Assembly (NCBI RefSeq): GCF_009914755.1
Contig: NC_060925.1
From: the human T2T-CHM13v2.0 reference genome, Homo sapiens
DNA length: 64,000 bases
Direction: 5' to 3' (one strand)
In this document: piece by piece, positions 46,049-47,371 of the stretch
Position numbering within the stretch: the first letter of the stretch is position 1
Layout: each line of letters starts with the position of its first letter
Program-made: the position numbers and the translations under genes
Notes under the pieces: generated by a model
The model's database searches: none
What the model was told of the DNA's origin: nothing
The model's input: the letters and a program-made list of their open reading frames with translations, nothing else

Positions 46049-47371
46049 TGTCAGAGGCATTTGAACCAGAGCAACTCCATCTTGAATAGGGTCTGGGTAA
46101 CATAAGGCTGAGACCTACTGGGCTGCATTTCCAGGAGATCAGACATTCTTAGTTATAGGATGAGCTAGGAGGTCAGCACAAGATACAGGTCACAAAGACC
46201 TTGCTGATAAAATAGGATGCAGTAAAGAAGCCAGCCAAAAGCCACCAAAACCAAGATGGTGACACAAGTGATCTCCGGTTGTCCTCACTGCTCATTATGT
46301 GCTAATTATTAGCATGCTAAAAGACATTCCCACCTGCGCCATGACAGTTTACAAATGCCATGGCAGTGTCTGGAAGTTACCCTATATGGTAAAAAAAGGG
46401 GAGGAACACTCCCCTCAGTTCCAGGAATTGCCCACCCTTTCCTGGAAAACTCATGAATAATCCACCCCCTGTTTAGCACATAACCAAGAAGTAACTATAA
46501 GTATAATCAATTGTTACTTGATTAGTCTGTTCTCATGTTGCTAATAAAGACATACCCAGGACTGGGTAATTTATAAAGGAAAGAGGTTTAATTGACCCAC
46601 AGTTCAGCATGGCTGGGGAGGCCTCAGGAAACTTACAATCATTGCAGATGGGAAAGCAAACATGTCCTTCTTCACATGGTGGCAGCCAGGGCAAGAATGA
46701 GAGCCCAGTGAAGGGGGAAGCCCCTTATAAAACCATCAGATCTTGTGAGTACTTACTATCATGAGAATAGAATAGGGGAAACGGCCTCCATGATCAATTA
46801 CCTCCCACCAGGTCCCTCCCATAACAAGTGGAGATTATGGGAACTACAAGATGAGATTTGGGTGGGGACACAGCCAAACCATATTATCAGTTGAGCAGCC
46901 CATGCCACTGCTCTACCTATGGAATAGCCATTCTTTTATTCTTTTACTTTCTTTTTTTTTTTTTGAAACAGAGTCTCACTCTGTCACCCAGGCTGGAGTG
47001 CAGTGGTGTCATCTCACTGCAACCCTTTACTGCAACCTCTGGGTTCAAGCGATTCTCGTGCGTCAGCCTCCCAAGTAAATGGGATTACAGGAATGAACCA
47101 TTATACCTGGGTAATTTTTGTATTTTTACTAGAGTCAGGGTTTCGCCATGTTGCCCAGGCTGGTCTCAAGCTCCTGAGCTCGAATGATCAGCCTGCCTCA
47201 GCCTCCCAAAGTGCTGGGATAACAGGCATGAGCCATGGTGCCTGGCCTATTCCTTTACTTTCTTAATAAACTTGCTTTCACTTTACTCTATTGATTTGCC
47301 TCAAAATCTTTCTTTCTCGAGATCTAAGAACCCTCTGCTGGGGTCCGGATTGGGACCCCTTTCTGGTAATA
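46049..47371 (+). mobile_element. MER41B solo LTR with nested THE1-family LTR (46512-46886, -) and Alu (~46950-47247, -)
   Basis: TGTCAGAGG start, ..TGGTAATA end, flanks gtat/gcat; contains the GAS-bearing segment absent from the MER41A-type LTRs. Confidence 0.85.
46419..46447. promoter_or_regulatory. Tandem GAS (STAT) motifs TTCCAGGAA and TTCCTGGAA
   Basis: 46419-46427 and 46439-46447, 20-bp period, inside MER41B. Confidence 0.8.

What the first reader, a model, noticed from the sequence alone, without database searches (positions are those of the whole stretch)
46049..47371. MER41B LTR with intact tandem GAS sites between ATP8B2 and IL6R: candidate cytokine-inducible enhancer
Seen: TTCCAGGAA (46419-46427) and TTCCTGGAA (46439-46447), 20 bp apart (about two helical turns), upstream of the THE1 and Alu insertions. 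The two MER41A-type LTRs near AQP10 lack this segment (ggggagg|catgaataatcc), a built-in control. Established: MER41B tandem GAS elements act as IFN-gamma/STAT1 enhancers (e.g. at AIM2); STAT3, the IL-6 effector, binds TTCCNGGAA; IL6R is the next protein-coding gene to the right. Inference: a primate-specific ERV enhancer could give IFN-gamma or IL-6 feed-forward control of IL6R or ATP8B2.
Basis: partly seen in the sequence, partly recalled or inferred. Interest (0 to 1): 0.7.

Follow-up and report, generated by a model that had tools for sequence, protein, structure and literature searches.

The report
Old MER41 retroviral LTR near IL6R
This is an ordinary solo LTR of the MER41 retrovirus family, tens of millions of years old, that still carries the family's pair of STAT-binding motifs, but nothing found here shows that it controls IL6R or any other gene.

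Summary
Observation confirmed. TTCCAGGAA (46419-46427) and TTCCTGGAA (46439-46447) lie 20 bp apart centre to centre. They sit in a complete solo LTR (46049-47371, + strand) split by a THE1-like LTR and an Alu.

It is a MER41 LTR of the GAS-bearing, non-A kind. MER41B is most likely; MER41E is not excluded. Both MER41 copies near AQP10 lack exactly this segment.

Age: own-branch divergence is 0.064-0.082. That is about 30-37 My at a recalled rate of 2.2e-9 per site per year, and more at slower primate rates. Print says 45-60 My.

The motif pair is inherited, not chance, and its survival is unremarkable. Both TTCNNNGAA survive in 7 of 16 unbiased relatives and both TTCCNGGAA in 2 of 16. There are 155 strict pairs genome-wide. 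The 11-base gap fits STAT tetramer sites.

No evidence of function was found. No RefSeq regulatory feature lies on it, promoters are 33-46 kb away, and no paper links MER41 to IL6R or ATP8B2. Binding data could not be consulted. It is an ordinary family member; an enhancer role is possible but unshown.

The parts
46045..46048 (.). Left flank GTAT, possible 4-bp target-site duplication
   Evidence: It matches 3 of 4 bases of the right flank GCAT. Such a match has about a 5% chance by my arithmetic, so this is weak evidence.
46049..47371 (+). Solo MER41 LTR, complete end to end, including two later nested insertions
   Evidence: There were 3622 first-look candidates in the genome; the 39 other scored copies are 83-86% identical over the first 462 nt. 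Uninterrupted relatives span about 632 nt and share the same first and last bases. Both flanks are single-copy, so no inner proviral sequence adjoins.
46049..46514 (+). LTR piece 1 (5' part, with the enhancer-like region and a TATA-like TATAAG at 46496)
46405..46451 (+). Segment absent from A-type MER41 copies. It is 47 nt here and corresponds to the 43-bp difference in print, plus a private 5-nt insertion and minus one spacer base.
   Evidence: The in-window copies and the print-named MER41A copy at BBS10 stop aligning at query position 356. Both in-window copies resume at 404; no resumption was scored for BBS10. The 43-bp deletion is told in PMC9963469 (passage).
46419..46427 (.). GAS motif 1, TTCCAGGAA (palindromic)
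46439..46447 (.). GAS motif 2, TTCCTGGAA (palindromic); 11-base gap and 20 bp centre to centre from motif 1
46515..46886 (-). Nested THE1-like (MaLR-type) LTR insertion, bounds good to about 4 bases, flanked by CAATTG / CAGTTG
Evidence: There were 5787 first-look candidates; the best other copies are 84-88% identical over its full length. Own-branch K2P is 0.061 from 11 relatives. The junctions were read against uninterrupted MER41 copies.
46887..46944 (+). LTR piece 2
   Evidence: It aligns to relatives directly after piece 1.
46945..47247 (-). Nested Alu insertion with a 15-16 bp target duplication (one mismatch)
   Evidence: Only 5 CpG are left in 303 nt. An AluS-like subfamily is my recall only.
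47248..47371 (+). LTR piece 3 (3' part, with AATAAA at 47265)
47372..47375 (.). Right flank GCAT, possible target-site duplication

Best explanation
Shown: the region is a solo long terminal repeat of the MER41 endogenous retrovirus family. In print this family is ERV1 superfamily, HERVW9 group, gammaretrovirus-like. The copy is of the kind that keeps the 43-bp tandem-GAS segment, most likely MER41B. It inserted tens of millions of years ago. It was soon split by a THE1-like LTR and later by an Alu.

Shown for the sequence, inferred for the protein: its 5' part still carries the family's two GAS palindromes with an 11-base gap. That geometry lets two STAT dimers sit on the same face of the helix and join as a tetramer.

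Inferred: the pair survived by chance rather than by selection, and the element is most likely a neutral relic. It may be visited by STAT1 after IFN-gamma, or by STAT3 or STAT5, where chromatin allows. It has no measurable effect on IL6R, ATP8B2 or AQP10.
For: Family and completeness:
- Full-length matches to thousands of genomic copies with shared termini.
- Single-copy flanks.
- 82% identity over 452 nt to the copy at CEP290, named MER41B in print.
- The copy at BBS10, named MER41A in print, stops aligning exactly at the segment edge (names from PMC6473030 Table 3).
- Family placement comes from PMC5753468 (passage).

Age:
- K2P own branch is 0.064-0.065 from the 26-29 best relatives.
- It is 0.082 from 16 relatives sampled only by the 5' 16-mer, where the mean branch of the others is 0.103.
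- The nested THE1-like insert has own branch 0.061.
- Print gives 45-60 My and 83-91% similarity to consensus (PMC6292174 and PMC9963469, passages).

Geometry: gaps of 11-12 bases are the commonest in STAT tetramer sites (PMC4990345, passage).

Neutral survival:
- Both TTCNNNGAA are kept in 19 of 29 best relatives (16 of 26 after collapsing duplicates), in 7 of 16 unbiased relatives, and in about 49 of 99 rows by my eye.
- Both TTCCNGGAA are kept in 7 of 29, 6 of 26, 2 of 16 and about 12 of 99.
- There are 155 strict pairs genome-wide.
- Next to the motifs this copy has a private 5-nt insertion and a 1-nt loss in the gap, so spacing shows no sign of constraint.

No functional mark:
- No RefSeq functional element lies on the LTR, while the AIM2 copy's GAS pair lies inside a RefSeq enhancer.
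- Promoters are 33-46 kb away.
- In HeLa only 3 of 175 IFN-gamma-induced genes contact a MER41 LTR, and IL6R is not one of them (PMC6292174).
- Fewer than 18% of the best GAS sites are occupied (PMC2897888).
Against: - The motif pair is of the best quality the family offers. Both sites are strict palindromes, whereas the AIM2 copy told as validated has one strict and one loose site.
- The 11-base gap is within the tetramer optimum.
- MER41B as a class gains about 20-fold STAT1 ChIP signal on IFN-gamma (PMC2897888 Table 2).
- A MER41B about 20 kb from IFI6 is told to matter for its induction (PMC6292174), so distance alone does not exclude function.
- RefSeq functional elements were not measured under cytokine stimulation. 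Only 1 of 14 chr1 strict pairs overlaps one, so the blank is weak evidence.
- I could consult no ChIP-seq, ATAC, histone, contact or cross-species data, and the supplements that list bound copies are closed.
Confidence: 0.7

Rival explanations
1. One reading: the LTR is a cytokine-inducible enhancer. STAT1 after IFN-gamma, or STAT3 after IL-6, binds the tandem GAS pair and raises transcription of IL6R or ATP8B2. This would give primates a feed-forward loop.
For: The motifs are intact and strict, with a tetramer-compatible gap. The family is known for this behaviour. STAT1 and STAT3 sites are listed on MER41B and MER41E LTRs (PMC6473030 Table 4). The LTR lies between the two genes and in their orientation.
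Against: - No RefSeq regulatory feature lies on it.
- It is 33 kb from the ATP8B2 start and 46 kb from the IL6R start.
- Motif survival is what neutral decay gives.
- The HeLa capture study found only IFI6, IFITM1 and IL4R among induced genes in contact with MER41.
- GAS occupancy is low in general.
- Four searches found no paper linking MER41 with IL6R, ATP8B2 or AQP10 regulation.
Confidence: 0.1
2. The LTR acts as a constitutive enhancer in placenta or trophoblast through GATA2/3, MSX2 and related factors, independent of STATs, as described for many MER41 copies.
For: PMC10069462 (passages) reports MER41A/B/C enrichment in placental enhancers and GATA2/3 and MSX2 binding on most MER41-derived enhancers in trophoblast stem cells.
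Against: Nothing specific to this copy is known. I did not scan for GATA or MSX2 motifs. No RefSeq enhancer lies on it. Two insertions split the LTR.
Confidence: 0.05
3. A naming rival: the copy belongs to MER41E, the other subfamily whose consensus has tandem GAS 21 bp apart, and not to MER41B.
For: - PMC2897888 Table 2 gives 21-bp tandem spacing for both B and E.
- Print disagrees on the AIM2 copy, whose spacer resembles this one. It is B in PMC9963469 and E in PMC6292174.
- My tests could not separate subfamilies by distance.
Against: - By coverage B is about eight times as abundant as E: 1069 kb against 135 kb (PMC2897888 Table 2).
- This copy's kind is abundant. There are 192 places with its exact flanking anchors and 384 with its 5' 16-mer, which is too many for a 135-kb subfamily.
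- The best match among copies named in print is the MER41B at CEP290.
Confidence: 0.15
4. The two motifs are a chance pair in unrelated sequence and the LTR call is wrong.
For: None beyond the fact that single TTCCNGGAA sites occur by chance (1.83 expected per window).
Against: The pair sits at the same place in relatives. The whole 1323-nt span, minus its two inserts, aligns end to end with thousands of copies.
Confidence: 0.01

Closest known systems
MER41 copy upstream of AIM2 (MER41.AIM2), told in print as an IFN-gamma/STAT1-dependent enhancer (Chuong et al. 2016 as told in PMC9963469; the original was not held)
   Same: It has a tandem GAS pair in the homologous segment with a similar spacer and belongs to the same family.
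   Different: - The AIM2 copy is a short, diverged fragment. Only about 30-100 nt align to this LTR.
- Its pair lies about 540 bp from the RefSeq select start and inside a RefSeq enhancer.
- It has a 12-base gap, with one strict and one loose motif.
- This copy is full length, 33-46 kb from promoters, unannotated, and has an 11-base gap with both motifs strict.
MER41A LTRs, such as the two copies near AQP10 in this window and the print-named copy at BBS10
   Same: They have the same termini and nearly the same sequence outside the segment. Distances overlap those of B-type copies.
   Different: They lack the 43-bp segment that holds both GAS motifs. In print they are not enriched for STAT1 binding.
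MER41B copies near IFI6, told in print to contact the IFI6 promoter and to contribute about twofold to its induction (PMC6292174, passage)
   Same: They are distal, about 18 and 23 kb from the gene start in T2T, they keep both TTCNNNGAA, and they belong to the same family.
   Different: They are 78-81% identical to this copy and their spacer is of the other kind. Which of the two copies is the one tested in print is my inference. IFI6 is a classic interferon-induced gene, which is not established here for IL6R or ATP8B2.
STAT tetramer binding sites (tandem GAS, as mapped for STAT5; PMC4990345)
   Same: Two TTCNNNGAA motifs with an 11-12 base gap, 20-21 bp centre to centre, which is the commonest class.
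   Different: Those sites were defined by binding data in mouse cells. Here only the sequence geometry is shown.

Membership tests
MER41 LTR (ERV1, HERVW9 group in PMC5753468) | End-to-end similarity to the family's many genomic copies, with shared first and last bases | tested here: met
   The 39 other scored copies are 83-86% identical over 462 nt, out of 3622 candidates. All three pieces align in order to uninterrupted copies of about 632 nt. The start is shared, and the end differs by one base. The 5' 16-mer occurs at 384 places against 1 for the control.
MER41 LTR (ERV1, HERVW9 group in PMC5753468) | Similarity to copies named MER41 in print | tested here: met
   Matches are CEP290 (named B) 82% over q1-452, BBS10 (named A) 78% over q2-356, and GCSH (named B and E) 78-85% in two pieces. 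Names are from PMC6473030 Table 3. By eye, 23 of 26 bases at 46461-46486 match the MEME motif that PMC2897888 says resembles MER41B; that motif is not subfamily-specific.
MER41 LTR (ERV1, HERVW9 group in PMC5753468) | Short target-site duplication flanking a solo LTR | tested here: inconclusive
   GTAT against GCAT matches 3 of 4 bases. The flanks are single-copy.
MER41 LTR (ERV1, HERVW9 group in PMC5753468) | Match to the curated library consensus (Repbase or Dfam) | not testable with these tools
MER41B subfamily | Holds the 43-bp segment with two GAS motifs that MER41A lacks | tested here: met
   The feature is told in PMC9963469 and PMC2897888. The spacing here is 20 bp rather than the consensus 21 because of a private 1-nt loss; 1 of 29 relatives shares an 11-base gap.
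MER41B subfamily | Distinct from MER41E, which also has tandem GAS | tested here: inconclusive
   Copies with the other spacer kind are 78-82% identical to this one and are no closer to each other. UPGMA on K2P distances separates neither A from B nor the two spacer kinds. Print conflicts on the AIM2 copy. Abundance favours B.
IFN-gamma-inducible MER41 enhancers (Chuong-type) | Intact GAS motifs | tested here: met
IFN-gamma-inducible MER41 enhancers (Chuong-type) | STAT1 (or IRF1) occupancy and H3K27ac gained on stimulation | not testable with these tools
The supplements that list bound copies are closed and were not requested.
IFN-gamma-inducible MER41 enhancers (Chuong-type) | A nearby cytokine-induced gene that contacts or depends on the element | not testable with these tools
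   There is only indirect print: in HeLa 3 of 175 induced genes contact a MER41 LTR, and neither IL6R nor ATP8B2 is named (PMC6292174). No paper ties MER41 to these genes.
IFN-gamma-inducible MER41 enhancers (Chuong-type) | Annotated regulatory activity (RefSeq functional elements, used as a proxy and not as a defining feature) | tested here: not met
   No such element lies within 300 bp of the pair. The AIM2 pair lies in one, and 1 of 14 chr1 strict pairs overlaps one, against a chr1 base rate of 4.7%.
STAT tetramer site | Two TTCNNNGAA motifs with a gap of about 11-12 bases | tested here: met
   The gap is 11 bases. The criterion is from PMC4990345. Binding itself was not tested.

The most novel reading that the evidence does not exclude
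A retroviral LTR found only in anthropoid primates places a STAT tetramer docking site 46 kb upstream of IL6R. In some cell type, such as monocytes or hepatocytes, this makes IL6R or ATP8B2 respond to IFN-gamma or IL-6. That would be a lineage-specific feed-forward loop in IL-6 signalling which mice lack.
Probability: 0.05. Interest if true: 0.55.

Novelty: new member of a known kind. Interest (0 to 1): 0.2.

Why it matters
If the LTR did tune IL6R, it would be a primate-only input into a drug-targeted cytokine pathway and one reason why mouse models differ from humans.

As it stands, it is one of roughly 150 genomic copies with the same intact motif pair. It matters mainly as a well-preserved and easily mappable example: it has unique flanks, private indels and nested-insert junctions. 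That makes it useful for checking which MER41 copies are bound in public data.

Tried and rejected
1. Naming from the AIM2 copy. The AIM2 upstream region gave only short, weak matches, so it is too diverged to name anything. Print also disagrees on its subfamily.

2. The idea that the minority spacer kind marks MER41E. The GCSH piece, named B and E in print, carries that spacer. However, six fetched copies with it are no closer to each other than to B-like copies. The copies near IFI6 that print calls MER41B carry it too. I rejected it as a marker.

3. Distance clustering of 31 copies. The result is star-like and shows no subfamily structure, which is in line with print saying that A and B are nearly identical apart from the deletion.

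4. The IFI6 comparator. Nothing was found in 29 kb at lower coordinates. Two copies were found on the other side. Which of them is the published one is uncertain.

5. The original Chuong 2016 paper is not held, by PMC id or by DOI. I saw only others' passages about it.

6. Literature on this locus. MER41+IL6R gave 3 papers, 2 listed and both read in passages, with no regulatory link. ATP8B2+IL6R+enhancer+STAT3 gave 0 papers. IL6R+endogenous retrovirus+enhancer+STAT gave 41 papers, of which 12 were listed. I read passages of two new ones, which proved irrelevant; two more of the 12 had already been read. ATP8B2/MER41/AQP10, any two terms, gave 8 papers, none of which holds MER41.

7. Not done:
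- a GATA, MSX2 or IRF motif scan with real matrices; a simple ISRE-like pattern found nothing;
- Alu and THE1 subfamily naming, because no library is on hand;
- any cross-species check, because no primate genomes are available here;
- supplements of PMC2897888, PMC6292174, PMC10069462 and Chuong 2016. These may list this very copy as bound or unbound, but they are closed and I did not ask for them.
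Full report
WHAT IS THERE. The two motifs are real: TTCCAGGAA at 46419-46427 and TTCCTGGAA at 46439-46447. They are the only TTCNNNGAA matches between 46049 and 47371. The window holds six TTCCNGGAA against 1.83 expected, and 2 of 100 shuffles reached six. The other four are single sites, one of them in an ATP8B2 coding exon.

The motifs sit in a repeat that runs from 46049 to 47371 on the + strand. Its first 462 bases match thousands of places in the same genome: 3622 first-look candidates, of which 40 were scored, and the 39 others are 83-86% identical.

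Compared piece by piece with uninterrupted relatives of about 632 nt, the element is complete from first base to last. It is split twice.
- A THE1-like LTR sits on the minus strand at about 46515-46886, flanked by CAATTG/CAGTTG.
- An Alu sits on the minus strand at about 46945-47247, with a 15-16 bp target duplication.

Relatives begin with the same bases, and their end differs from this copy's by a single base. The flanks read GTAT and GCAT, a 3-of-4 match, which is only weak evidence for a 4-bp target duplication. Both flanks are single-copy in the genome. It is therefore a solo LTR with no inner proviral sequence beside it.

FAMILY. I named it from the LTR and from print and built no consensus.

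PMC6473030 (Table 3, passage) names solo MER41 LTRs in the 2 kb upstream of several genes. I fetched nine of those promoter regions from the reference and compared them.
- The copy at CEP290, named MER41B, matches at 82% across query positions 1-452, including the GAS segment.
- The copy at BBS10, named MER41A, matches at 78% but stops at position 356.
- The locus at GCSH, named B and E, matches in two pieces at 78-85%.
- Of the other six regions, four gave only short matches of 27-57 nt (DDHD2, CDH15, GAMT and AP1S1). DEAF1 and SLC25A37 gave none.

The two other MER41 copies in the window, at about 1378-1780 and 5613-6373, also stop at position 356. They resume at 404 and read ggggagg|catgaataatcc. 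This is the published difference: MER41A lacks the STAT1 motifs through a 43-bp deletion (PMC9963469, passage).

Here the missing stretch measures 47 nt. This copy has a private 5-nt insertion just before motif 1 (0 of 29 relatives) and one base fewer in the gap (11 bases; 28 of 29 relatives have 12). That gives 43 + 5 - 1 = 47.

PMC5753468 (passage) places MER41-int, with LTRs MER41A, B, D, E, F and G, in the ERV1 superfamily, HERVW9 group.

B AGAINST E. B against E is not settled. PMC2897888 Table 2 gives a 21-bp tandem spacing for both consensus sequences. I made three attempts to separate them, and all three failed.
- Copies with the other spacer kind form no cluster of their own.
- UPGMA on K2P distances is star-like.
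- Print disagrees on the AIM2 copy, which is B in PMC9963469 and E in PMC6292174.

Abundance favours B. Coverage is 1069 kb for B against 135 kb for E. This copy's kind is common: 192 places carry its exact anchors and 384 carry its 5' 16-mer.

AGE. I used pairwise distances only. Across the 29 best relatives, the mean K2P from this copy to the others is 0.140 and among the others 0.149. That gives an own branch of 0.065, or 0.050 on columns without CpG. After collapsing three near-identical duplicate pairs the own branch is 0.064. These relatives were picked for likeness, so the figure is biased low.

I drew a second sample using only an exact match to the first 16 bases. Of the 29 other copies, 16 hold the segment, 5 clearly lack it, 2 stop at its edge and 6 are cut short. 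That sample gives an own branch of 0.082 and a mean branch of 0.103 for the others.

At 2.2e-9 substitutions per site per year (a recalled rate), these figures mean about 30-37 My for this copy and about 47 My for the sample mean. Slower primate rates push the ages up. Print says the virus entered anthropoids 45-60 My ago and that copies are 83-91% similar to their consensus (PMC6292174 and PMC9963469, passages).

The nested THE1-like insert has an own branch of 0.061 from 11 relatives. It therefore landed not long after the LTR did. The Alu keeps 5 CpG in 303 nt.

IS THE MOTIF PAIR SPECIAL? No. It is inherited, since the same two sites stand at the same place in relatives.

Survival of both motifs, by sample:

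| Sample | Both TTCNNNGAA kept | Both TTCCNGGAA kept |
|---|---|---|
| 29 best relatives | 19 of 29 | 7 of 29 |
| Same, duplicates collapsed | 16 of 26 | 6 of 26 |
| Unbiased sample | 7 of 16 | 2 of 16 |
| First 99 of 192 anchor-defined places, counted by eye | about 49 of 99 | about 12 of 99 |

Genome-wide the strict pair with a 10-12 base gap occurs at 155 places, against 10 for the control.

At both sites the variants differ mostly at the central positions, in the way CpG decay produces. The CpG form is still seen in 1 of 29 copies at one site and 2 of 29 at the other. With 6-10% divergence per site, keeping 12 specified bases has a chance of about 0.3-0.45 by my arithmetic. No selection is needed to explain the survival. 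The private indels next to the motifs also speak against constraint on spacing.

HOW IT WOULD WORK. Two GAS motifs with an 11-12 base gap are the commonest class of STAT tetramer site. At about 20-21 bp centre to centre the two dimers are 'eclipsed' on one face of the helix and are joined through their N-domains (PMC4990345, passages).

MER41B as a class gains almost 20-fold STAT1 ChIP signal in IFN-gamma-treated HeLa cells (PMC2897888). STAT1 and STAT3 sites are listed for MER41B and MER41E LTRs (PMC6473030 Table 4). The sequence is therefore competent.

A TATA-like TATAAG follows 49 nt after motif 2. The THE1-like insert then cuts the LTR about 13 nt after that, between this region and the AATAAA at 47265. 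The LTR's own promoter is therefore probably broken, which is my inference. Enhancer action would not need it.

IS IT USED? Nothing I could test says so.
- No RefSeq functional element overlaps the LTR. The nearest is an MPRA silencer at 49214-49414.
- The AIM2 copy's GAS pair lies inside a RefSeq enhancer.
- Of 14 strict pairs on chr1, only one overlaps any RefSeq functional element, against a base rate of 4.7%. Those elements were not measured under cytokines, so the blank is weak evidence.
- The ATP8B2 3' end is 7.6 kb to the left. The ATP8B2 start is 33 kb away, the AQP10 start 38 kb and the IL6R start 46 kb.
- In HeLa, only IFI6, IFITM1 and IL4R among 175 IFN-gamma-induced genes contacted a MER41 LTR (PMC6292174).
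- Even the best GAS sites are occupied in fewer than 18% of cases (PMC2897888).
- Four literature searches found no paper that ties a MER41 copy to IL6R, ATP8B2 or AQP10.

Binding, chromatin, contact and cross-species data could not be consulted. The supplements that may list this copy are closed.

VERDICT. The element is an ordinary, well-preserved solo MER41 LTR of the GAS-bearing kind, most likely MER41B. The enhancer claim is a fair hypothesis by family resemblance, with a low prior for a real effect on IL6R or ATP8B2. I put the chance of a real effect at about 0.1 and the neutral-relic reading at about 0.7.

Noticed in passing
window about 1378-1780 and about 5613-6373 (+ strand): The two segment-less MER41 copies upstream of AQP10 are 91% identical to each other over 239 nt, against 72-80% to the 46049 copy. 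They may be the two LTRs of one provirus remnant or a local duplication. The 3.8 kb between them was not examined.
   Followed up: partly
L031 (chr1:158,213,400-158,215,800), positions 940 and 961: The MER41 fragment upstream of AIM2 keeps a tandem pair with a 12-base gap and lies inside the RefSeq enhancer 158,214,243-158,214,542, about 540 bp from the select start. Print names it MER41B in one paper and MER41E in another.
   Followed up: partly
L063 about 8037-8657 and L064 about 2910-4034 (chr1:27.53 Mb, near IFI6): Two MER41 copies lie about 18 and 23 kb from the IFI6 start, on its upstream side in T2T. Both keep a tandem TTCNNNGAA pair. No MER41 match was found in 29 kb on the other side, although PMC6292174 speaks of a copy 'downstream'.
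   Followed up: partly
L006/L011 (chr9), L019/L020 and L029/L030 (chrX): Three pairs among the 29 best relatives are 0-0.4% apart. They are MER41 copies carried inside recent duplications, and two of the pairs are in opposite orientation on chrX.
   Followed up: no
window 49214-49414: A RefSeq silencer (an MPRA fragment, peak417) lies 1.8 kb to the right of the LTR. It is the nearest annotated regulatory feature.
   Followed up: no
window 18048, 41952, 44605, 53703: There are four further single TTCCNGGAA sites, making six in the window against 1.83 expected. One is in an ATP8B2 coding exon and one is in an Alu-like stretch. None has a partner within 40 bases.
   Followed up: yes
genome-wide, spacer between the two motifs: Two spacer kinds occur among GAS-bearing MER41 copies: one like this copy's, and a minority kind that begins differently. 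The two kinds do not form separate clusters by distance.
   Followed up: partly
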